Below, piece by piece: positions 6,012 through 16,770 of a stretch of DNA of 17,384 nucleotides (the first letter of the stretch is position 1; each line of letters begins with the position of its first letter). The position numbers and the translations under genes were made by a program. The notes beneath the pieces were generated by a model. That model saw nothing but the letters and a program-made list of their open reading frames with translations. It was not told the origin of the DNA and ran no database searches. Origin of the DNA: a virus (taxonomy: Duplodnaviria > Heunggongvirae > Uroviricota > Caudoviricetes); IMG/VR virus record IMGVR_UViG_2657244971_000001; one strand, written 5' to 3'.

Positions 6012-6326
6012 GGCTGAACTCCTGAAAATGGCTGTGAAAATATCGCCCGCGAAATGCCAGGCTGATTAGGAAAACAGGAAAGGGGGGGTTAGTGATTCAG
6101 GCCGTTACCGCGTCCGTCGAGAAAAACTTCCACGAGCAAATCACTGGTATAAGTGCGCTCGATGCCGCGATGCAGATAAAGCCGTCCGCGTAAATTAGCT
6201 GATGCAGTCCAGGTAACTGTGTTAAGTTCTCGTTAACATTAGGGGTAACATAGGGAGTATAAGATAGTGGAATGCATCATTTTATTGTTGCGAAAATGAT
6301 CGAACCAGCTGGATATCGTGTATCAT

Positions 6327-8300
6327 ATGGAACCGATGATAACTTTCATGGAATGTCTCGGTATATATATGAAAATTAGACCACAGCAGCACCTAATTAA
6401 CATCCTGACTTCAACCAAACAACATCATCCAAATTTTACTCTTTTTCTTGGTGCAGGTGCTAGTATCTCAAGTGGTGTTGATAGTGCTGGTGGGATGATA
6501 AGGCGCTGGAGAGATGCTTACACTCTAATGTATGGAGAAGATGCTCTCAAAAAACAAGTTTGGTACGATAAAGATAATGAGTATTCAGAGCTTTTTGAAG
6601 CATTATATGATCAACCAACTCAAAGAAGAGAATTTATTGAAAGTTGTATTACCGCAGCTAAACCATCTTGGGGATACGTTTATCTCACAAATCTATTGGA
6701 TAAAGGCCATTTTAATACAATTTTTACGACTAACTTCGATGATTTAGTCAATGAAGCTTGCTTTACCTTTTCTAATAATCTGAGACCAATAGTGTGTGCC
6801 CACGATTCAAGTATCAACAGCATACGTTTAACCACAGCTCGGCCAAAAATAATAAAATTACATGGTGATTTTTTATTTGACAATATCAAGAATACTATAA
6901 GGGAGCTTGAGTCACTTGAAGATAACATGAGGGCCAAATTTAGACAGTTTGCAACTGAATTTGGCATGATCGTTATTGGGTACTCGGGACACGACCGTTC
7001 AATTATGGATACTCTCAATACGTTATTGCATTCCGGTAGTTGTTTTCCTCATGGGATTTATTGGTGTATCTGTGACTCAGACACTGAAAAACTTTCTGAG
7101 CAACTTAAAAATCTGGCCCGCTTTCCTCATTTTCATCTTATTAAAATTAATGGATTTGATGAGTTCATGGCTGAATTACATTACGCATTAGGCTGTAATT
7201 TGCAGCAAGAGGTAGTAGAGCCATACTCTGCATTATCTAATAAACTAGATAGATATTTCTCTATAGCTGAAGAAGATGACGCAGATGTCCAGCATGAGAT
7301 TATTAAAAGAGATATGAATAATCTTGCTGATCATGTCAGGAGAGTGAATACAGTAAGCCAGTTTGTAAAAAAAATAAAAGTACTTCTTTCAGAGAAAGAC
7401 TCATCGTTAGATGATAATTCGATCACTAAATCTTTAGAAATAATGTTAAAGGAAACTAAATTTGCTGGTTCTCCTGAGGGGATTCATTTTTATAATACCC
7501 CCAATTATTTGATTGCAAACTCTGCATTTCGTGCTGGAGAGTATAATGAATGTGTAGAATATGCTACTAAACATCTGGCTAATGGGAAATCTCTCGAAAC
7601 AGAAGTATTAATACTTCGTTCCTATATTCATTTGGATAATGATTCTGAAATACAAAAGTCAATAGAAAGAATAACAAGTTATAACAAAATGAATGATGGT
7701 GAAGTTGGCAAGCTTGTAAATGGATTAGTGGACTTAATGGATGCTAAAAAATTCAAAATTGCGAATAGCCTTATGGACATACTTGAATCCCGAACAATAC
7801 CGTCTAAACATAAGCAGTTATTGCTTATAAATAGAGTTCTTTGCAACAAATTACAAAAGCAGCCGCTTTCAGCAAAACAGCAACAAGAGCTTGAGGAAGT
7901 GCTGAATGAAGTGATAGATAAAAACGAAGCTTGGCTTGCTCTGGGGGCTGCTATACTTTTAGAAAAATGGGACATTGCTGAAGAAGTGCTATCAGCATTA
8001 GATGAAACTGAGATAGTTACAATATTGACGCAATCAATGCCGATTTTTGACTTGATTTCTACAGAGTTTTATGAAAAGGTCAAGTTAGTAGCTATAGAGC
8101 GTGGTTATAACGTTTCATTCGAAGAAGAAACGGAGTTACCAGAGGTTGTTCCTGCTGAGGATGAGACTCAAAGTCTCAGTCCTGATGTGAGAGAAATACC
8201 TACAGATAAAAAGAAAGCCATAACTCACAAATCAGCAGACAATGATGAGGCATTTGATGGATTACGCACTGGCGAAGAAAGTATAAGCAAACCAGCTTAA
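6327..8300 (+). CDS. SIR2-family (SIR2_2-like, defence-associated sirtuin type) protein with an uncharacterised alpha-helical C-terminal half; candidate NAD+-hydrolysing anti-phage effector. Start ambiguous: GTG 6318 or ATG 6327/6336/6348/6369
   Basis: 660-codon open frame. Motifs seen: FLGAGAS (nt 6444-6464, Gly-rich dinucleotide-binding loop), TTNFDDLVNEA (Asn codon at 6732-6734), KLHGDF (His codon at 6861-6863), IGYSGHD. Asn/His spacing (43 residues) is comparable to the catalytic N/H pair of ThsA and DSR-type sirtuins. AT-rich codon usage by eye, unlike the flanking lambda genes. Confidence 0.8.
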   Translation: MEPMITFMECLGIYMKIRPQQHLINILTSTKQHHPNFTLFLGAGASISSGVDSAGGMIRRWRDAYTLMYGEDALKKQVWYDKDNEYSELFEALYDQPTQRREFIESCITAAKPSWGYVYLTNLLDKGHFNTIFTTNFDDLVNEACFTFSNNLRPIVCAHDSSINSIRLTTARPKIIKLHGDFLFDNIKNTIRELESLEDNMRAKFRQFATEFGMIVIGYSGHDRSIMDTLNTLLHSGSCFPHGIYWCICDSDTEKLSEQLKNLARFPHFHLIKINGFDEFMAELHYALGCNLQQEVVEPYSALSNKLDRYFSIAEEDDADVQHEIIKRDMNNLADHVRRVNTVSQFVKKIKVLLSEKDSSLDDNSITKSLEIMLKETKFAGSPEGIHFYNTPNYLIANSAFRAGEYNECVEYATKHLANGKSLETEVLILRSYIHLDNDSEIQKSIERITSYNKMNDGEVGKLVNGLVDLMDAKKFKIANSLMDILESRTIPSKHKQLLLINRVLCNKLQKQPLSAKQQQELEEVLNEVIDKNEAWLALGAAILLEKWDIAEEVLSALDETEIVTILTQSMPIFDLISTEFYEKVKLVAIERGYNVSFEEETELPEVVPAEDETQSLSPDVREIPTDKKKAITHKSADNDEAFDGLRTGEESISKPA

Positions 8301-10299: not shown

Positions 10300-10436
10300 T
10301 GTTTGAGTTTAATATGGCAGAACTTCTTCGCCACCGCTGGGGGCGTCTGCGCTTATATCGTTTCCCCGGTTCTGTTTTGACCGATTACCGAATACTGAAG
10401 AATTACGCCAAAACACTGACAGGAGCAGGAGTATGA
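10296..10436 (+). CDS. ylcG: YlcG-like small protein (46 aa)
   Basis: Manually translated [46 protein letters not shown]; start overlaps the rusA stop (ATGA). Confidence 0.55.
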
Positions 10437-10521
10437 AGTCAGAGATAACAATCAACTAATACTGTTTTGTTGATTTTTGCTTGTAATTGGCGTTCTGGTC
10501 TGAGTTTTGTGGAGTAAGTTG

Positions 10522-10899
10522 ATGCGTGATATTCAGATGGTTCTTGAGCGTTGGGGAGCGTGGGCGGCTAATAATCATGAAGATGTGACCTGGTCGTCCA
10601 TTGCCGCCGGTTTTAAGGGATTAATTCCTTCAAAAGTAAAATCTCGCCCACAATGTTGTGACGATGACGCGATGATCATTTGCGGGTGCATGGCCCGTCT
10701 GAAAAAGAACAACAGCGATTTGCATGATTTATTGGTGGACTATTATGTCGGCGGCATGACTTTTATGGCGCTTGCACGTAAGCATGGGCGATCTGATTGT
10801 TGGGTTGGCAGGATGCTTCAGAAAGCTGAGGGCGTAGTGGAGGGTATGCTGATGGTGTTGGATCTCCGATTGGAGATGGATGCTGATTGTTCGAAATAA
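10522..10899 (+). CDS. quuD: Late-gene antiterminator Q (phage 82 / DLP12 QuuD type)
   Basis: ATG at 10522 with GGAG 7 nt upstream; protein [33 protein letters not shown]...[16 protein letters not shown] matches the QuuD type as recalled; followed by a promoter-like element and terminator. Confidence 0.85.
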
Positions 10900-10911
10900 T
10901 TAAAGGAAAAG

Positions 10912-10940
10912 TTGCTGTCTGATTGTCATTAGTCTAACAT
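10912..10940 (+). promoter_or_regulatory. Candidate late promoter pR' (-35 TTGCTG, 17-bp spacer, -10 TAACAT) downstream of Q
   Basis: Hexamers read directly from the sequence; the position immediately after Q and before a terminator mirrors the lambdoid pR'-qut-tR' arrangement. Not verifiable without experiment. Confidence 0.35.
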
Positions 10941-11000
10941 TTTAAATGTTGGAATCGCAACGTAGTTATTATCATATAACAGCTTGTTTCCTGATTTAGC

Positions 11001-11027
11001 CAGCCTCCCCAAAGGCTGGTTTTTTTC
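11001..11027 (+). terminator. Rho-independent terminator (CCAGCC-TCCCCAAA-GGCTGG followed by T7), likely tR'-type terminator of the short late leader RNA
   Basis: 6-bp GC-rich stem followed by TTTTTTT on the plus strand. Confidence 0.6.
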
Positions 11028-11054
11028 TAATAAGTATTATTTCGGGTAGGGATT

Positions 11055-11579
11055 TTATTGTTTAACCCATAATAATTCATTGACATTGAATCCCAACTTT
11101 TGAGCGGTTCGCACATAGTCTGCTTTTACTTTATCTGGAATAGTTGGGGTCCTTGCCAGAATCCATAGGTATTCTCTGTTCGGACCACTGACAAGAGCAT
11201 ACTTATACTCATCATCCAGTTTGATTACATTATAGCCACCATAGAAGGGGCCAAAAAACGAAACCTTCAATGCTGCAGTTTTAGTATCTCCAGTAAAGTA
11301 TGCTTTACCTTCGCTCTCGCTCCATTTATTTTTCGTTGGATCGTATCCACGGTTAAGTACACGAATCCCTCCGTCGTTCCGTTTTCCATAAGTAGCGCTG
11401 ACCTGTTCCAGACCACGTTCGAACCGGTTCTCGAGGCGAGCTATTTCATACCATTTTCCGAGGTAGCGGTTGGCGTCAAAATTTGTAATCGGCTGCACAC
11501 CTTTAGGTGGTGTCGGGGCCTTACATGCTATAAGAGTGAAAGAGAGTGCAATGCCAGTCAACACAGGCCATAACTTCAT
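11055..11579 (-). CDS. Blc-like bacterial lipocalin, outer-membrane lipoprotein (moron cargo)
   Basis: 174-aa ORF with lipoprotein signal and lipobox (..FTLIAC); strong similarity to E. coli Blc as recalled (NFDANRYLGKWYEIARLENRFERGLE...KVSFFGPFYGGYNVI...YLWILARTP); AGGA Shine-Dalgarno about 8 nt upstream. Confidence 0.85.
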   Translation of the reverse strand: MKLWPVLTGIALSFTLIACKAPTPPKGVQPITNFDANRYLGKWYEIARLENRFERGLEQVSATYGKRNDGGIRVLNRGYDPTKNKWSESEGKAYFTGDTKTAALKVSFFGPFYGGYNVIKLDDEYKYALVSGPNREYLWILARTPTIPDKVKADYVRTAQKLGFNVNELLWVKQ

Positions 11580-11611
11580 AATAAATCCTGTACTTTTGAT
11601 AGTTGAGAGTA

Positions 11612-11661
11612 AGTATGAAAGATAGATGATTACGACCGATCACTTAAAGAACTTTCATACT
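11612..11661. repeat. Perfect 10-bp inverted repeat AGTATGAAAG ... CTTTCATACT separated by 30 nt, in the divergent intergenic region between the lipocalin gene and the DUF523/DUF1722 gene
   Basis: Arms at 11612-11621 and 11652-11661 are exact reverse complements. Confidence 0.6.
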
Positions 11662-11771
11662 ATATTAGGAATAGTCCATAACAGAAAAATTGTCAGTGAT
11701 GACGCCAGAAAGGCAATTTATTCCGTGCACTACACAGTTTATGTGTTAATGAATTAGTCAAGGGGGAGAAT

Positions 11772-12731
11772 ATGATAAAAAAACCTGTGATTGGAATCAG
11801 CGGTTGTTTGGCCGGTTCTGCTGTTCGTTTTGATGGTGGTCACAAAAGAGCTGACTTTTTAATGGACAAATTAGTGGAATGGGTAACATTCAGACCAGTA
11901 TGTCCGGAAATGGCTATAGGGCTGCCAGTTCCGCGTCCTGCTCTACGTCTTGTGCGCTCGACGCAAGGAAATATACGGATGTGTTTCAGCCACGACCAGA
12001 ATGAGGATGTGACAGAGAGAATGACAGAGTTTAGTCGTTCTTATATGGACAAATTAAAGGATGTATCGGGGTTTGTGGTTTGTGCTAAATCTCCCAGCTG
12101 TGGCATGGAGCGCGTGCGTGTCTATGATGAAAATGGTAATCGAGGTCGTAAAGATGGAGTGGGACTATTTACGAGCACTTTGATGGAAAAGTTTTCCTGG
12201 CTACCGGTTGAAGAGGATGGGCGATTACATGATCCAGTGCTTCGTGAGAATTTTGTTGAAAGAGTTTTTGCTTTGCATGAGCTCAATCACCTTTACAAGG
12301 AGAAATTATCAAGAAGAGAGTTATTAGCTTTTCATAGTCGTTATAAGCTTCAGTTGTTGGCGCATAGTCAGGCAGGCTATAAAGATATGGGACCATTTGT
12401 GGCTGCAATACACGAGTGGGCGGACCTTGAATCATACTTTGAGGTGTATCGTGATAAGCTGATGGCGATTCTCAGAAAACCTGCATCACGTAAAAATCAC
12501 ACGAATGTGCTGATGCATATACAGGGGTATTTTAGTAACTACTTAAGTACACGCCAGCGTAAAGAGTTGAGCGAGGTTATACTTAACTATCGTTCTGGCA
12601 CATTACCTCTTCTTGCGCCGTTGACTCTGCTGAAGCATTATCTGGGTGAGTATCCTAATGATTACTTGCTTACACAGAATTACTTCGATCCCTATCCGGA
12701 CGAACTGGCTCTAAGACTGATGGTAAATTAA
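11772..12731 (+). CDS. DUF523 (TudS-like 4Fe-4S thiouracil-desulfidase fold) / DUF1722 (YbgA-like) fusion protein
   Basis: 319-aa ORF with AGGGGGAG Shine-Dalgarno; N-terminus GISGCLAG..C..C-type cysteines typical of the DUF523 family, C-terminal half resembling YbgA-type DUF1722. Confidence 0.75.
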   Translation: MIKKPVIGISGCLAGSAVRFDGGHKRADFLMDKLVEWVTFRPVCPEMAIGLPVPRPALRLVRSTQGNIRMCFSHDQNEDVTERMTEFSRSYMDKLKDVSGFVVCAKSPSCGMERVRVYDENGNRGRKDGVGLFTSTLMEKFSWLPVEEDGRLHDPVLRENFVERVFALHELNHLYKEKLSRRELLAFHSRYKLQLLAHSQAGYKDMGPFVAAIHEWADLESYFEVYRDKLMAILRKPASRKNHTNVLMHIQGYFSNYLSTRQRKELSEVILNYRSGTLPLLAPLTLLKHYLGEYPNDYLLTQNYFDPYPDELALRLMVN

Positions 12732-13082
12732 TTGTATGCGATATCATCCAAAAGGATGAGTTCCTGCATGCAGGATATTTACAATCGTAAAAACTACACT
12801 ATGATACCCAGAGTGTCAGTTTGTATAAAAACTCTGTTTACGCTGAAGAAACAATTGAGATGCAACTTAAAGTTGGTAAACATGCCAGTCAAAATATATA
12901 ATATTATGATTCCACGCAGCTATATATAATATAACGGATTGGTTTAATAATTTGTCTTTGTGAGTTAAATACATAATTTTATACTTGTGATGCAATGAAA
13001 TTTTCCTTATTGTTGAACTGGCGAATATTGATTTTCCACCTATACTTACCTGGTGTAACCCCAATGATATCAGGTGGATAAT

Positions 13083-13814
13083 ATGCCATACATATGTTCT
13101 ATCATTTTGGTGTTGAACTCGTTTGATGTCCGAATTGGTAAAGAAGATATTTTGTTTAAAAAAGGAAGTGCTGTTCTCATTGATTACAATTTAAAAGATT
13201 TTTTTTCATCAAATATAGATCATGTAATGATCGTAGATGTTGAAGAGAAAACAGTTAATGATTTCTTTAAAAGCAACACACTCTCACCTTTTTCTGTAAG
13301 AAGGTTTTATCCGGCATACTTGATGGTGGAATGTGAAGATTTTTCATTGTTAAAGAACTTGATTGCATGCTTGAATTGTGATGGCAGAACTGTGGATTTT
13401 GTTAGAAATCAAATATCACTTGCATGTCTTGCTATCTTATCTTCAGAGAAAATAGTGCAAAGTTTTTTATTTGGATGTCTTAATAGTTTAGGAAGTAAAG
13501 TTAAGGCTATTATTCACACGGATATATCTGCGGCATGGAGACTTTGTGATATATCTTCAAGACTGTATCTGAGTGAAAGTCTGTTAAAAAGAAAATTAAA
13601 GCACGAAGGCTTATCATTTAGTAAGTTAATTCTTGAAGAGCGAATGGTGATGGCGGAAAGGTTATTAAGCTACAATTTATATTCTGTTGGAAAAGTTGCT
13701 GAGATATGCGGTTATGAAAACACGTCATATTTTGTAAGTGTTTTCAGAAGGTATTTTTGTGTTCCTCCCCATCAATATTCATCAAGATTTTTTTTAGAAA
13801 AAGACATGATGTAA
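13083..13814 (+). CDS. AraC/XylS-family transcriptional regulator (AppY/GadX/Rns-like small activator) in a strongly AT-rich islet
   Basis: C-terminal double helix-turn-helix signature (..LYLSESLLKRKLKHEGLSFSKLILEERMVMAERLL...VGKVAEICGYENTSYFVSVFRRYF); ATG 13083 preceded by AGGTGG; the ORF track starts at an upstream GTG (13074). Confidence 0.8.
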   Translation: MPYICSIILVLNSFDVRIGKEDILFKKGSAVLIDYNLKDFFSSNIDHVMIVDVEEKTVNDFFKSNTLSPFSVRRFYPAYLMVECEDFSLLKNLIACLNCDGRTVDFVRNQISLACLAILSSEKIVQSFLFGCLNSLGSKVKAIIHTDISAAWRLCDISSRLYLSESLLKRKLKHEGLSFSKLILEERMVMAERLLSYNLYSVGKVAEICGYENTSYFVSVFRRYFCVPPHQYSSRFFLEKDMM

Positions 13815-14001
13815 CGTGATGCGTTTTAATGATTTTGTAATTTTCGTATTTGATAATTGTATGATGCTTTCAGCTACGCCAGAATAATCGCGGCGTTTTT
13901 CTTTTTGAATAGATGTTCAAGCCTTACGCTAATGTAACTTCTATACCTTTCCTCTTCGTTCCGAACCGTGTACACCATCCGTTATTTGCGGAGGTGAGGC
14001 T

Positions 14002-14217
14002 ATGAAATCCATGGATAAGTTAACAACGGGCATTGCCTACGGCACCTCCGCAGGCAGTGCTGGCTACTGGTTTTTACAGCTGCTCGATAAAGTCACGCCC
14101 TCACAGTGGGCAGCAATAGGTGTGCTGGGTAGCTTGGTATTTGGCCTGCTGACGTACCTGACAAACCTTTATTTCAAGATTAAAGAAGATAAGCGCAAGG
14201 CTGCGAGAGGTGAATAA
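14002..14217 (+). CDS. essD: Class II holin / pinholin (phage 21 S21 / DLP12 EssD type) with dual-start motif MKSM
   Basis: 71-aa [63 protein letters not shown]... matching S21/EssD as recalled; two predicted TM helices. Confidence 0.9.
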
Positions 14218-14714
14218 TGCCTCCATCATTACGAAAAGCCGTTGCTGCTGCTATTGGTGGCGGAGCAATTGCTATAGCATCAGTGTTAATCACTGGCCCA
14301 AGTGGTAACGATGGTCTGGAAGGTGTCAGCTACATACCATACAAAGATATCGTTGGCGTATGGACTGTATGTCACGGGCATACAGGAAAAGACATCATTC
14401 CCGGTAAAACGTATACCGAAGCAGAATGCAAAGCCCTCCTGAATAAAGACCTTGCCACGGTAGCCAGACAAATTAACCCGTACATCAAAGTCGATATACC
14501 GGAAACAACGCGCGGCGCTCTTTACTCGTTCGTCTATAACGTGGGCGCAGGCAATTTCAGAACATCTACTCTTCTTCGCAAAATAAACCAGGGCGATATC
14601 AAGGGCGCATGTGACCAGCTACGTCGCTGGGCATACGCTGGCGGTAAGCAATGGAAAGGCCTGATGACTCGTCGTGAGATTGAGCGTGAGGTCTGTTTGT
14701 GGGGGCAACAATGA
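14217..14714 (+). CDS. rrrD: SAR endolysin (signal-anchor-release lysozyme, R21 / RrrD type)
   Basis: 165-aa ORF with Gly/Ala-rich N-terminal SAR helix ([20 protein letters not shown]) followed by a lysozyme domain; start overlaps the holin stop by 1 nt. Confidence 0.9.
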
Positions 14715-15175
14715 GCAGGGTAACCGCGATTATCTCCGCTCTGGTTATCTGCATCATCGTCTGCCTGTCATGGGCTGTTAATCATTACCGTGATAATGCA
14801 ATCGCCTACAAAGAACAGCGCGATAACAAGGCCAGTGAACTGGAGAAGGCGAACGCCACCATTACTGACATGCAGATGCGTCAGCGTGATGTTGCTGCGC
14901 TCGATGCAAAATACACGAAGGAGTTAGCTGATGCGAAAGCTGAAAATGATGTTCTGCGTGATGATGTTGCCGCTGGTCGTCGTCGGTTGCACATCAAAGC
15001 AGTCTGTCAGTCAGTGCGTGAAGCCACCACCGCCTCCGGCGTGGATAATGCAGCCTCCCCCCGACTGGCAGACACCGCTGAACGGGATTATTTCACCCTC
15101 CGGGAACGACTGGTAATGATGCAGGCCCAACTTGAAGGTGCTCAGCAATACATAACCGAGCAGTGTTTAAAGTAA
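14711..15175 (+). CDS. rzpD: Rz inner-membrane spanin (i-spanin)
   Basis: N-terminal TM helix followed by a coiled-coil-rich periplasmic domain; ATG at 14711 overlaps the endolysin stop. Confidence 0.85.
14931..15116 (+). CDS. rzoD: Rz1 outer-membrane lipoprotein spanin (o-spanin), embedded in the +1 frame of Rz
   Basis: 61-aa ORF with lipobox (VVGC) and proline-rich mature segment ([16 protein letters not shown]); the embedded Rz/Rz1 architecture is classic. Confidence 0.8.
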
Positions 15176-15312
15176 AATCTTAACTACAATATGATTCATT
15201 TTGATGATTGTTTCATAAGGAACAGTGAAGTAAGATCTAAGAGGAGTTAAATTTTATACAGTATAATCATAATATTGCAGCAAGGTGGTTATAATTGAAA
15301 GAATATTTAGAT

Positions 15313-16770
15313 ATGAATACATCTCATGTAAGAGTTGTTACTCATATGTGTGGGTTCCTGGTTTGGCTCTATAGTCTTTCAATGTTGCCACCAATGGTTG
15401 TAGCATTGTTTTATAAAGAAAAAAGCCTGTTCGTTTTCTTTATAACTTTCGTTATATTTTTTTGCATTGGTGGCGGAGCGTGGTATACAACTAAGAAATC
15501 TGGCATTCAATTACGTACCCGTGATGGGTTTATTATAATTGTAATGTTTTGGATTTTGTTTTCTGTTATTAGTGCATTCCCTTTATGGATTGACTCAGAA
15601 CTTAATTTAACGTTCATTGATGCTCTGTTTGAAGGGGTTTCTGGAATAACAACAACAGGAGCAACTGTAATTGATGATGTTAGTTCATTACCTCGGGCAT
15701 ATTTGTACTATCGGTCACAGTTAAATTTTATAGGTGGTTTAGGAGTTATTGTTCTGGCGGTTGCTGTATTGCCATTATTGGGTATTGGTGGTGCAAAGCT
15801 TTATCAGTCAGAAATGCCGGGGCCATTTAAGGATGACAAACTCACTCCCCGCCTGGCCGATACGTCACGGACACTGTGGATAACTTATTCTTTATTAGGT
15901 ATTGCTTGTATTGTCTGTTATAGACTTGCAGGAATGCCTTTGTTTGATGCTATTTGTCACGGGATTTCCACAGTTTCGCTTGGTGGTTTCTCAACTCATA
16001 GCGAGAGTATCGGATATTTTAATAACTATTTGGTTGAGCTGGTGGCTGGTTCTTTTTCCCTGCTATCGGCTTTCAACTTCACTCTTTGGTATATTGTTAT
16101 TAGCAGGAAAACGATAAAACCTTTAATCAGAGATATTGAACTTCGTTTCTTTCTGTTAATAGCCTTAGGGGTGATCATTGTTACCTCTTTCCAGGTCTGG
16201 CATATAGGTATGTATGACTTGCATGGAAGTTTTATTCATTCGTTTTTTCTTGCCAGTTCCATGCTCACTGATAATGGTTTAGCTACGCAGGATTATGCAA
16301 GTTGGCCCACGCACACGATAGTGTTTTTGCTGTTGTCAAGTTTCTTTGGGGGATGTATAGGTTCAACTTGTGGTGGAATTAAGTCACTTCGATTTCTTAT
16401 ACTTTTCAAACAAAGCAAACACGAGATAAATCAGCTTTCTCATCCCAGAGCGTTGTTGAGTGTAAATGTAGGAGGGAAGATAGTTACAGATCGTGTAATG
16501 AGGTCTGTATGGAGTTTCTTTTTTCTTTATACTCTCTTCACGGTGTTTTTTATACTGGTGTTAAATGGTATGGGATATGATTTTCTTACATCATTTGCAA
16601 CAGTGGCTGCATGTATTAATAATATGGGATTAGGTTTTGGGGCTACTGCATCGTCATTCGGAGTGCTTAATGACATTGCAAAATGTTTAATGTGCATAGC
16701 TATGATTCTTGGTCGCCTTGAAATTTATCCTGTTATTATATTGTTTTCAGGTTTTTTTTGGCGCTCCTAA
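15313..16770 (+). CDS. trkG: TrkH/TrkG-family potassium uptake membrane protein (Rac prophage TrkG-like moron)
   Basis: 485 codons from ATG 15313 (the ORF track starts at an upstream TTG); polytopic membrane protein matching E. coli TrkG as recalled; AT-rich; sits directly after Rz/Rz1, as in Rac. Confidence 0.9.
   Translation: MNTSHVRVVTHMCGFLVWLYSLSMLPPMVVALFYKEKSLFVFFITFVIFFCIGGGAWYTTKKSGIQLRTRDGFIIIVMFWILFSVISAFPLWIDSELNLTFIDALFEGVSGITTTGATVIDDVSSLPRAYLYYRSQLNFIGGLGVIVLAVAVLPLLGIGGAKLYQSEMPGPFKDDKLTPRLADTSRTLWITYSLLGIACIVCYRLAGMPLFDAICHGISTVSLGGFSTHSESIGYFNNYLVELVAGSFSLLSAFNFTLWYIVISRKTIKPLIRDIELRFFLLIALGVIIVTSFQVWHIGMYDLHGSFIHSFFLASSMLTDNGLATQDYASWPTHTIVFLLLSSFFGGCIGSTCGGIKSLRFLILFKQSKHEINQLSHPRALLSVNVGGKIVTDRVMRSVWSFFFLYTLFTVFFILVLNGMGYDFLTSFATVAACINNMGLGFGATASSFGVLNDIAKCLMCIAMILGRLEIYPVIILFSGFFWRS

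What the first reader, a model, noticed from the sequence alone, without database searches (positions are those of the whole stretch)
11055..11579. Prophage-borne Blc-like lipocalin encoded antisense to the late operon
An outer-membrane lipocalin paralogue sits on the opposite strand immediately after the Q terminator, in the classic moron slot between Q and the holin (where toxin genes lie in Stx phages). The chromosomal Blc is linked to envelope stress and lipid handling; a phage copy could alter outer-membrane properties or serve as a superinfection-exclusion or fitness factor.
Basis: partly seen in the sequence, partly recalled or inferred. Interest (0 to 1): 0.45.

Follow-up and report, generated by a model that had tools for sequence, protein, structure and literature searches.

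The report
Prophage-carried Blc lipocalin cargo gene
The gene is a real, intact and expressed outer-membrane lipocalin carried as cargo by lambda-like E. coli prophages; it is common and already annotated and published, but it came from another bacterial lineage together with its neighbour, a tRNA-desulfurating enzyme linked to light stress.

Summary
Window 11055-11579 (-) encodes an intact 174-aa Blc-family lipoprotein. It lies 27 nt past the terminator that follows Q, upstream of the holin, and antisense to the late genes.

It is not new. The same gene is in 1,135 of 5,426 complete E. coli genomes and in sequenced lambdoid phages, where it is annotated 'Lipocalin Blc'. Mathieu et al. 2020 list blc as a moron in more than half of their gut lambda phages. 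The identical protein (WP_000780581.1) was quantified by proteomics and rose 2-3 fold on meropenem.

What I add:
- It is not a copy of E. coli's own blc (64% identity). It belongs to a second Enterobacterales clade (82-85% identity).
- In that clade, blc sits divergent from a MerR/MlrA-like regulator whose operon holds RudS, a tRNA 4-thiouridine desulfidase.
- The phage carries blc and rudS 192 bp apart with the regulator missing, plus an AraC-like gene, as one 3.1-kb swappable module.

Likely role: a periplasm-facing lipid-binding lipoprotein that helps lysogens under envelope or photo-oxidative stress. This role is inferred, not shown.

The parts
10507..10899 (+). Late antiterminator Q (DLP12 QuuD / phage 21-type family)
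   Evidence: Pfam Phage_antitermQ 2.5e-51. 97-100% identical and at an essentially fixed offset from blc (+1069 to +1074) in 78 of 80 viral loci; L136 is offset by about 1.3 kb and L146 is 91% identical.
10912..10940 (+). Candidate late promoter pR' (TTGCTG, 17 nt, TAACAT)
   Evidence: My reading of the sequence. 8 of 12 consensus matches, which is below the scan's threshold. The region is 97% conserved among allele groups. Inferred, not shown.
10998..11028 (+). tR'-like intrinsic terminator: 9-bp stem, 6-nt loop, U7
   Evidence: The only terminator-like site in 10400-14300. MFE -26.2 kcal/mol, z = -4.24. On the minus strand the hairpin forms but has no U tract.
11055..11579 (-). blc: 174-aa outer-membrane lipoprotein of the lipocalin family, clade B
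   Evidence: 100% identical to RefSeq WP_000780581.1.
11580..11771 (.). 192-bp divergent spacer between blc and rudS. Holds candidate blc -10 elements (TATAGT at 11664-11659; CATACT at 11617-11612) and the 10-mer TGCACTACAC at 11726-11735.
   Evidence: The rudS-to-blc offset is -193 in 76 of the 77 loci where rudS was found (L100: -198). 96% conserved across allele groups whose flanking genes have dS 0.19-0.29. Collinear with the chromosomal blc upstream regions for about 95 bp. No consensus sigma-70 promoter was found on the minus strand.
11772..12731 (+). rudS: TudS (DUF523) + DUF1722 fusion, a tRNA 4-thiouridine desulfidase
   Evidence: Pfam 2-thiour_desulf 3e-40 and DUF1722 2e-40. 93% identical to RudS_vir of phage 1H12, which lowered tRNA s4U when overexpressed (PMC11417400).
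13074..13814 (+). AraC-family regulator, YdeO/GadX-like, GC 0.32
   Evidence: Pfam HTH_18 and HTH_AraC. Best NCBIfam match is YdeO at 124 bits, below the 348-bit cutoff. Present in 75 of 80 viral loci.
10882..13990 (.). The exchangeable cargo module: 3' tip of Q, pR'/tR', blc, rudS, araC-like
   Evidence: Homology to the porin-carrying phage ev243 ends at 10881 and resumes at 13991. GC drops to 0.31-0.46 across this stretch.
14002..14217 (+). Holin (phage 21 S type), first lysis gene downstream of the module
   Evidence: Pfam Phage_holin_2_1 2e-35.

Best explanation
The ORF is the blc gene of a widespread lambdoid-prophage cargo module.

The protein (shown by homology): it is exported, lipidated at Cys19 and sorted to the outer membrane (Lys at +2, so no Lol-avoidance signal). 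It is an eight-stranded lipocalin barrel facing the periplasm. By homology with E. coli Blc it should bind lysophospholipids or fatty acids, and so take part in handling damaged or misplaced envelope lipids.

Expression: it is transcribed in the lysogen from its own upstream region (partly shown). It does not depend on late phage transcription, because it lies antisense to that transcription and beyond the tR' terminator, which shields it from the constitutive short pR' transcript.

Origin (shown by comparison): the gene was not copied from E. coli. It was captured together with the adjacent rudS gene from a chromosomal locus of the type 'blc <-> merR/mlrA-like, (hiuH-like), rudS' found in Enterobacter, Leclercia and Buttiauxella. 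The regulator gene was lost in the process. In the related genera Cedecea and Scandinavium, the same regulator heads an SDR / FAD-oxidase / DUF1365 / CFA(UfaM)-like operon, a gene set that is light-inducible in Pseudomonas.

Most likely biological role (inferred): blc is a lysogen fitness gene for envelope stress, and possibly near-UV or photo-oxidative stress. It is delivered with RudS, which removes the UVA-sensitive s4U from tRNA, and E. coli has no RudS of its own.
For: Family, signal peptide and fold by homology. Position and strand.

Fixed module: 80 of 80 viral loci have intact blc; Q is at a constant offset in 79 of 80; rudS is about 192 bp away in 77 of 80; the AraC-like gene is present in 75 of 80. 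Of the 1,042 E. coli genomes holding at least 80% of blc, 979 hold at least 80% of the Q-to-holin segment.

Purifying selection: dN/dS 0.065, from 20 synonymous and 5 non-synonymous differences. blc stays intact even where rudS is disrupted (L156).

Expression: WP_000780581.1, identical to the window protein, was quantified in mid-log E. coli CCUG 70745 and rose 1.99- and 2.98-fold after 15 min of meropenem, alongside Spy, PspC and outer-membrane lipoproteins (PMC13459554).

Origin: the NJ tree places it in clade B, at 82-85% identity against 64% to E. coli Blc. Ten of the 11 species genomes with at least 74% identical Blc show blc divergent from the rudS-containing operon (the exception is Kosakonia sacchari L020), and 9 of those 10 have the MlrA-like regulator gene next to blc. 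That rudS is 70-73% identical to the window's.

RudS function and its light-regulon context: PMC11417400 and PMC9758184. The operon next to blc in Cedecea and Scandinavium. The native-like upstream region of about 95 bp is retained and conserved.
Against: No ligand, localisation or phenotype data exist for this protein; its function rests on 64-68% identity to E. coli Blc.

No consensus sigma-70 promoter was found upstream of blc. The sigma-S-like -10 of the chromosomal relatives (CTACACTT) is degraded to CATACT in the phage.

The MerR-like regulator and its operator are absent, so the light-stress link may not carry over to the phage context.

DNA identity to the chromosomal loci is only 67-73%, with saturated dS, and GC3 is 0.40 against 0.57-0.78. 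The real donor is therefore unsampled and the capture may be old.

The proteomic induction followed a beta-lactam, not light. I did not check how many of the quantified peptides are unique to the prophage protein.

My AF2 model had low confidence (pLDDT 58.5).
Confidence: 0.6

Rival explanations
1. Superinfection exclusion or receptor masking. Like T5 Llp or the Cor-type lipoproteins, the phage lipocalin would sit at the inner face of the outer membrane and block a receptor or DNA entry for incoming phages.
For: It is an outer-membrane lipoprotein made from a prophage. Mathieu et al. note that lambda morons are dominated by membrane proteins, including a sie gene. The alternative occupant of the same slot is a porin, so the slot often holds surface-remodelling cargo.
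Against: No match to any PADLOC defence model. The PHROG family is 'unknown function'. Its nearest relatives, 82-85% identical and of the same length, are chromosomal lipocalins in non-phage loci next to a stress regulator. That leaves little room for a new protein-protein function. Its constant partner is a tRNA-modifying enzyme, not a defence gene.
Confidence: 0.08
2. Hitch-hiker. blc has no selected function in the phage and persists only because it is physically tied to the selected cargo (rudS and/or the AraC-like regulator) or to the pR'/tR' region.
For: blc, rudS and the spacer travel as a rigid unit with a fixed 192-bp spacing. No phenotype is known for it.
Against: dN/dS 0.065 between phage allele groups, with no inactivated copy among the 80 viral loci. 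Of the 1,135 E. coli genomes with a match, 1,042 match over at least 80% of the gene. blc is intact in L156, where rudS carries frame disruptions. The protein is actually made.
Confidence: 0.12
3. Antibiotic or xenobiotic capture. The lipocalin would sequester hydrophobic antibiotics or host-derived lipids such as bile or fatty acids in the envelope, raising tolerance, as proposed for the Burkholderia BcnA lipocalins (recalled from my own knowledge).
For: Abundance rose 2-3 fold within 15 min of meropenem exposure in a carbapenem-resistant strain. The gene is frequent in gut, animal and clinical isolates.
Against: The induction came together with a general envelope-stress set (Spy, PspC, IbpB, other lipoproteins), so it is more simply read as a stress response. 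BcnA belongs to the YceI family, not the Blc family (my own knowledge). Meropenem is hydrophilic.
Confidence: 0.1
4. Decaying pseudogene or silent ORF.
For: The prophage in this window is defective: there is no cI, cro, O or P between exo and ninB. A few E. coli genomes hold truncated copies covering 71-78% of the gene.
Against: Full-length ORF with an intact lipobox. 80 of 80 viral copies intact. Strong purifying selection. Protein detected.
Confidence: 0.02

Closest known systems
E. coli chromosomal Blc (P0A901; structures 1QWD, 2ACO, 3MBT)
   Same: Same family and length. Lipoprotein signal peptide, GxW motif, E 3.5e-69 over residues 20-174, and above the curated Blc cutoff. Probably the same fold and the same lipid-binding chemistry.
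   Different: Only 64% identical over the mature part, and in a different clade. The E. coli gene lies in the ampC/sugE neighbourhood (PMC6177240). This one is in a prophage, and its chromosomal relatives lie next to a MerR/MlrA-like regulator and RudS.
Clade-B Blc of Enterobacter, Leclercia, Buttiauxella, Cedecea and Scandinavium (MlrA-like-linked lipocalin)
   Same: 82-85% identity, identical length, and the phage copy nests inside this clade. Same neighbour, rudS (70-73% identical), and the same divergent orientation. About 95 bp of upstream sequence is collinear.
   Different: The regulator gene and the optional hiuH-like gene are missing. The rudS operator palindrome is not kept. GC3 is 0.40 against 0.57-0.78. 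The gene is embedded between phage Q and the holin.
blc moron of gut lambda-like phages (Mathieu et al. 2020; phages 1H12, Lambda_ev087 and others)
   Same: The same gene. 1H12 gp65 is 97% identical and lies in the same Q-blc-rudS-araC-holin order. The paper already calls it a moron present in more than 50% of its lambdas.
   Different: A different allele group (about 90% DNA identity over the module). In this window it sits in a defective prophage at attB-lambda. The paper neither analyses its origin nor tests its function.
NmpC/OmpD-type porin moron of DLP12-like phages, and stx in Stx phages
   Same: Same slot, downstream of Q and tR' and upstream of the holin. The porin is also on the opposite strand, and the flanking DNA (the RusA-Q and holin-lysis regions) is about 94-95% identical.
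   Different: Unrelated proteins. stx genes are co-oriented with late transcription and depend on it (established knowledge), whereas blc is antisense to it.
Lambda Bor and Lom (classical envelope morons)
   Same: Prophage-expressed outer-membrane proteins or lipoproteins that are dispensable for phage growth. Mathieu et al. group them with blc.
   Different: No sequence relationship. Bor and Lom act in serum resistance and adhesion (established knowledge). No host-interaction phenotype is known for blc.

Membership tests
Bacterial lipocalin Blc (NCBIfam NF007786 / Pfam PF08212) | Full-length profile score above the curated cutoff | tested here: met
   316.1 bits against a cutoff of 267, residues 1-174 on model positions 1-174/176. 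Lipocalin_2 at 149.7 bits against a cutoff of 24.
Bacterial lipocalin Blc (NCBIfam NF007786 / Pfam PF08212) | Type II (lipoprotein) signal peptide with a lipobox and an invariant Cys | tested here: met
   MKLWPVLTGIALSFTLIAC: L-I-A-C at residues 16-19. L16, A18 and C19 are invariant in 30 homologues.
Bacterial lipocalin Blc (NCBIfam NF007786 / Pfam PF08212) | Outer-membrane sorting (no Asp at position +2) | tested here: met
   Lys20 follows Cys19. The sorting rule is established knowledge. Actual localisation was not measured.
Bacterial lipocalin Blc (NCBIfam NF007786 / Pfam PF08212) | Lipocalin fold (eight-stranded barrel plus C-terminal helix) with the GxW motif | tested here: met
   Gapless alignment to solved Blc 3MBT at E 3.5e-69. 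G41-K42-W43 is present. The AF2 model shows 7 beta strands and a C-terminal helix but has pLDDT 58.5, so it was not relied on.
Bacterial lipocalin Blc (NCBIfam NF007786 / Pfam PF08212) | Binding of lysophospholipids or fatty acids | not testable with these tools
   Needs purified protein.
Bacterial lipocalin Blc (NCBIfam NF007786 / Pfam PF08212) | Stationary-phase or stress (sigma-S type) promoter | tested here: inconclusive
   Chromosomal clade-B copies carry CTACACTT about 35 nt upstream of the ATG. The phage has CATACT at that position and TATAGT 80 nt upstream. The scan found no consensus promoter. The protein rises under envelope stress.
Orthologue of the E. coli chromosomal blc (clade A, ampC/sugE-linked) | Groups with E. 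coli, Salmonella and Citrobacter Blc in a tree | tested here: not met
   64% identity to E. coli Blc. It nests in the other clade with Enterobacter bugandensis and L004.
Clade-B (MlrA-like-linked) blc locus | Adjacent, divergently transcribed MerR/MlrA-like regulator gene | tested here: not met
   Absent from all 80 viral loci and from the window. No remnants in the non-coding DNA.
Clade-B (MlrA-like-linked) blc locus | Linkage to a DUF523+DUF1722 (RudS) gene on the opposite strand | tested here: met
   rudS starts 192 bp from blc. The chromosomal counterparts are 70-73% identical.
Phage moron | Dispensable insert between conserved phage genes, with other cargo at the same site in related phages | tested here: met
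   Phage ev243 has 94-95% identical flanking DNA but carries a porin instead. The breakpoints are at 10881 and 13991.
Phage moron | Base composition different from the flanking phage genes | tested here: met
   blc GC 0.44 and GC3 0.40, compared with Q 0.48/0.51, RusA 0.52/0.57 and Rz 0.52/0.53.
Phage moron | Own promoter and terminator | tested here: inconclusive
   A conserved native-like upstream region is present, but there is no consensus promoter. The downstream hairpin lacks a U tract on the blc strand.
Phage moron | Expressed from the prophage | tested here: met
   From the literature, not from my own computation: the identical protein was quantified by TMT proteomics.
Known superinfection-exclusion or anti-phage defence proteins | Similarity to a described defence or exclusion family | tested here: not met
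   No PADLOC hit at E <= 0.001. PHROG 2809 is 'unknown function'.

The most novel reading that the evidence does not exclude
blc and rudS together would be a phage-transduced near-UV / photo-oxidative-stress protection module, cut out of a MerR(LitR/BluR-like)-controlled light-response locus and freed from its repressor. RudS would erase the UVA-sensitive s4U from tRNA. The clade-B lipocalin would bind or clear photo-oxidised or lyso-lipids (or furan / cyclopropane fatty-acid derivatives) in the outer membrane. This would give E. coli lysogens, which have no native RudS or clade-B Blc, better survival in light-exposed environments outside the host. Host BluR or MlrA might cross-regulate the retained promoter.
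Probability: 0.2. Interest if true: 0.55.

Novelty: already known. Interest (0 to 1): 0.25.

Why it matters
About one in five sequenced E. coli strains carries this module, so its function bears on how prophages shape envelope and stress physiology in gut, clinical and environmental isolates. In practice, proteomic and transcriptomic studies that report 'Blc' in such strains may be measuring the prophage protein rather than the core-genome one, as happened in the meropenem study. The co-capture with RudS gives a concrete, cheap hypothesis to test (UVA or blue-light and envelope-stress phenotypes of lysogens), and a possible first functional handle on a second, unstudied Blc clade. The existence of the gene in phages is not itself a discovery.

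Tried and rejected
1. DNA alignment of the phage spacer to the chromosomal loci. Only the coding regions align, at 67-73%, so deletion end-points cannot be mapped. A protein-level search of the module's non-coding DNA for remnants of the merR, hiuH-like, AAA-ATPase or methyltransferase neighbours found nothing (best E 0.06).
2. Promoter scan. There is no consensus sigma-70 promoter on the blc strand of the spacer. My hand-picked -10 candidates are weak.
3. Looking for the chromosomal rudS operator palindrome (ACTTGGACAA-N10-TTGTGTAAGT) in the phage. It is not retained. I considered an MlrA-box-like AAATTG...CAATTT repeat in the spacer and dropped it as unsupported.
4. AF2 structure from a 30-sequence alignment. 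pLDDT was 58.5, too low to use, so I ran no fold search.
5. Rfam on the whole window: no hits.
6. Literature search for DUF1365 + lipocalin + photolyase + cyclopropane: no papers. No supplementary tables were held for the proteomics paper, so I could not check RudS, the AraC-like protein or the chromosomal Blc in that dataset.
7. A link between lipocalin and light-response genes beyond Enterobacterales. None of the 52 more distant loci (L035-L086) had MerR, CFA-synthase or DUF1365 homologues within 6 kb at my thresholds, and only L042 had a weak (41%) YbgA/RudS-like match. The association is therefore lineage-specific.
8. Whether the AraC-like gene is a PsrA/PsrB/PatE homologue. Not tested, because I held no reference sequences.

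Full report
OBSERVATION. It matches Pfam Lipocalin_2 (7e-44) and, over its full length, the NCBIfam model 'outer membrane lipoprotein Blc' at 316 bits against a curated cutoff of 267. It aligns without gaps to the solved E. coli Blc structures (3MBT at E 3.5e-69; 1QWD, 2ACO). The N-terminus, MKLWPVLTGIALSFTLIAC|K, is a lipoprotein signal peptide with a lipobox, and Lys at +2 predicts outer-membrane sorting (the rule is established knowledge).

The surroundings are also as described:
- YbcO, RusA, YlcG and a Q antiterminator (10507-10899) lie on the + strand.
- The only terminator-like site in 10400-14300 is at 10998-11021, followed by a T run. It folds strongly (-26.2 kcal/mol, z = -4.2).
- The blc stop codon lies 27 nt beyond that T run.
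- A phage-21-type holin, a lysozyme and Rz lie at 14002-15175 on the + strand.

So the gene does sit in the Q-to-holin cargo slot, antisense to late transcription.

WHAT ELSE IS IN THE SLOT. blc is not alone. A 319-aa DUF523+DUF1722 protein (11772-12731) starts 192 bp away on the other strand. After it comes a 246-aa AraC-family regulator of very low GC (13074-13814).

Comparison with phage ev243, which has 94-95% identical flanking DNA but carries a porin, puts the breakpoints at 10881 (inside the last codons of Q) and 13991 (11 nt before the holin ATG). The exchangeable unit is therefore 10882-13990. It brings its own pR'/tR' region along with all three cargo genes.

Among 80 IMG/VR viral loci holding this blc:
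- all 80 have an intact ORF;
- Q sits at a fixed offset in 79;
- rudS lies at the same 192-bp spacing in 77;
- the AraC-like gene is present in 75.

HOW COMMON, AND IS IT KNOWN?
- The 525-bp gene is present at 95% identity or more in 1,135 of 5,426 complete E. coli genomes.
- 1,042 genomes hold at least 80% of the gene, and 979 hold at least 80% of the 3.9-kb Q-to-holin segment.
- RefSeq annotates it 'lipocalin family protein' (WP_000780581.1).
- Twelve sequenced lambdoid phages carry the module, with the gene labelled 'Lipocalin Blc' in most of them.
- Mathieu et al. [quoted passage not shown]

The finding as written is therefore already in the literature and the databases. PHROGs still files the protein as 'unknown function'.

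IS IT FUNCTIONAL? Neither holds.
- No viral copy is broken.
- Between the most divergent phage allele groups, blc shows 20 synonymous and 5 non-synonymous differences, giving dN/dS 0.065.
- In L156, rudS carries frame disruptions while blc is intact.
- A 2026 TMT proteomics study of E. coli CCUG 70745 lists WP_000780581.1, which is 100% identical to the window protein. It rose 1.99- and 2.98-fold after 15 min of meropenem at 128 and 192 ug/mL, within an envelope-stress group that includes Spy, PspC, IbpB and several outer-membrane lipoproteins. The authors call it simply 'Blc' (PMC13459554).

One caveat: I could not inspect the peptide-level data.

ORIGIN. The phage protein is only 64% identical to mature E. 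coli Blc. It is 82-85% identical to lipocalins of Enterobacter, Leclercia, Buttiauxella and Cedecea, and to one metagenome contig.

A neighbour-joining tree separates two Enterobacterales clades:
- Clade A holds E. coli, Salmonella, Citrobacter and the second copy in Buttiauxella. This is the ampC/sugE-linked gene (PMC6177240).
- Clade B holds the phage copies, nested next to Enterobacter bugandensis and contig L004.

Ten of the 11 species-representative genomes whose Blc is at least 74% identical to the phage protein show the same arrangement; Kosakonia sacchari (L020, 78%) is the exception. In those ten, blc lies divergent from an operon holding a DUF523+DUF1722 gene that is 70-73% identical to the window's and of identical length. 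Nine of the ten have a 241-aa MerR-family regulator with MlrA-type domains at the head of that operon (Huaxiibacter L015 does not), and most also have a transthyretin/HiuH-like gene. In Cedecea and Scandinavium the same regulator instead heads a SnoaL / SDR / FAD-amine-oxidase / DUF1365 / CFA-synthase operon.

The phage pair blc <-192 bp-> rudS is thus most simply a piece of such a locus that has lost the regulator. The roughly 95 bp upstream of blc are still collinear with the chromosomal spacers, including a conserved block (chromosome CAATATACTACGAAT, phage TAATATAGTATGAAA). I found no remnant of merR or the hiuH-like gene.

The direct donor is unsampled or the capture is old:
- coding DNA identity is only 67-73%;
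- dS is saturated;
- GC3 is 0.40, against 0.57-0.78 in the chromosomal copies.

The AraC-like gene (GC 0.32) has a separate origin.

THE NEIGHBOUR GIVES THE CONTEXT. DUF523+DUF1722 fusions are RudS enzymes, [4Fe-4S] desulfidases that remove 4-thiouridine from tRNA. Overexpression lowers tRNA s4U and shortens the UVA-induced growth delay (Jamontas et al. 2024, PMC11417400).

[quoted passage not shown] In 1H12, gp66 lies next to gp65 'Lipocalin Blc'. The two are 93% and 97% identical to the window proteins.

The same paper makes three further points:
- E. coli has no RudS of its own.
- RudS genes often sit in light-responsive operons under MerR/LitR regulators.
- The Enterobacter cloacae RudS lies next to a MerR regulator.

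In Pseudomonas, the class II LitR light regulon contains phrB, an SDR, an FAD oxidoreductase and the furan-fatty-acid synthase UfaM (PMC9758184). That is essentially the gene set next to clade-B blc in Cedecea and Scandinavium. A lipocalin-family lipoprotein is light-induced in Chryseobacterium lacus (PMC7064467). None of these papers mentions the blc-rudS linkage.

MECHANISM, AND HOW SURE EACH STEP IS.
- Shown by sequence and homology: it is a lipidated, outer-membrane-sorted lipocalin of the Blc family.
- Shown by comparison: it is cargo in a swappable module, under purifying selection, co-inherited with RudS, and of clade-B origin.
- Shown in the literature: the protein is made in a lysogen and rises with envelope stress.
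- Inferred: it binds lysophospholipids or fatty acids, as E. coli Blc does (my knowledge of Campanacci et al.), and helps the lysogen handle damaged envelope lipids.
- Inferred: its antisense position beyond tR' keeps it independent of the constitutive short pR' transcript in lysogeny and exposes it to antisense interference during Q-dependent late transcription.
- Speculative: together with RudS it forms a near-UV / photo-oxidative protection pair.

Regulation is unresolved:
- The scan found no consensus promoter on the blc strand.
- The sigma-S-like CTACACTT of the chromosomal copies is CATACT in the phage.
- The 10-mer TGCACTACAC from the chromosomal blc promoter occurs once in the window, upstream of rudS at 11726-11735. 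I cannot explain this.
- The blc-proximal part of the spacer is better conserved than synonymous sites in the flanking genes, which points to functional constraint.

THIS WINDOW'S PROPHAGE. It abuts ybhC, so it sits at the lambda attB site. It has a lambda-type integrase. It has no cI, cro, O or P between exo and ninB; a 660-aa SIR2-domain protein sits there instead. A trkG-like gene follows Rz. It is therefore a defective, mosaic prophage in which the blc module has been kept intact. That fits host-level selection, and it makes the 'late operon' aspect largely historical in this strain.

VERDICT. They give a testable hypothesis rather than a surprise. Interest 0.25; novelty class 'already known'.

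Noticed in passing
window 11772-12731 (+): The neighbour gene is a RudS (TudS+DUF1722) tRNA 4-thiouridine desulfidase. It is 93% identical to the experimentally tested RudS_vir of phage 1H12. E. coli has no native RudS, so the prophage adds a tRNA de-modification activity to about 18-20% of E. coli strains.
   Followed up: yes
window 13074-13814 (+): An AraC-family regulator with GC 0.32. Its best (sub-threshold) NCBIfam matches are YdeO, HilD and GadX. It is present in 75 of 80 viral loci and shows the highest allele divergence in the module (82-100%). It may belong with the prophage Psr/PatE/AppY-type regulators of acid resistance. I did not compare it with them.
   Followed up: partly
window 6318-8300 (+): A 660-aa SIR2-domain protein sits where the immunity and replication genes (cI, cro, O, P) would be. 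It has PADLOC hits to pAgo-associated SIR2 (Aga_SIR2) models and to candidate system PDC-S65, so it is likely a prophage-borne defence gene. I looked for no partner gene.
   Followed up: partly
window 15295-16770 (+): A TrkH-family potassium transporter (annotated trkG in matching genomes) with GC 0.38 lies directly after Rz, as in the K-12 Rac prophage, although this prophage sits at attB-lambda next to ybhC. No genome in the collection covers more than 79% of the window at one place, so the mosaic appears unusual.
   Followed up: partly
window 11726-11735 (+); loci L003-L017 about 35 nt upstream of blc: The 10-mer TGCACTACAC is conserved in the chromosomal clade-B blc promoters, where it contains a sigma-S-like CTACACTT. 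It occurs exactly once in the window, but upstream of rudS and pointing towards rudS, not blc. This could be promoter shuffling or a shared regulator site. Unexplained.
   Followed up: partly
L004, L008-L017, 40-75 nt upstream of rudS: A conserved palindrome, ACTTGGACAA-N10-TTGTGTAAGT, overlaps a TTGGAC-17-TAAGTT promoter upstream of the chromosomal rudS genes. It is a good candidate operator for the adjacent MerR/MlrA-like regulator. It is absent from the phage module.
   Followed up: partly
L156 (rudS region); L136 and hits H4-H7, H16: Some copies of the module are hit by insertions. L136 has about 1.3 kb extra between Q and blc. Several genomes have IS2, IS3 or IS5 elements inside the segment. 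L156 has a frame-disrupted rudS. blc is intact in the two viral loci checked (L136, L156).
   Followed up: partly
L007 (JARKOR010000135.1, 2.1-kb contig): A contig binned as 'Candidatus Nanosynbacter' carries a 99% identical blc and a 100% identical Q. This is almost certainly E. coli prophage DNA mis-binned into the MAG.
   Followed up: no
PMC13459554, Table of DEPs: The meropenem proteomics paper discusses 'Blc' as a core envelope-stress lipoprotein, but the accession it reports is the prophage lipocalin, not the chromosomal Blc. Studies on strains carrying this prophage can easily confuse the two.
   Followed up: partly
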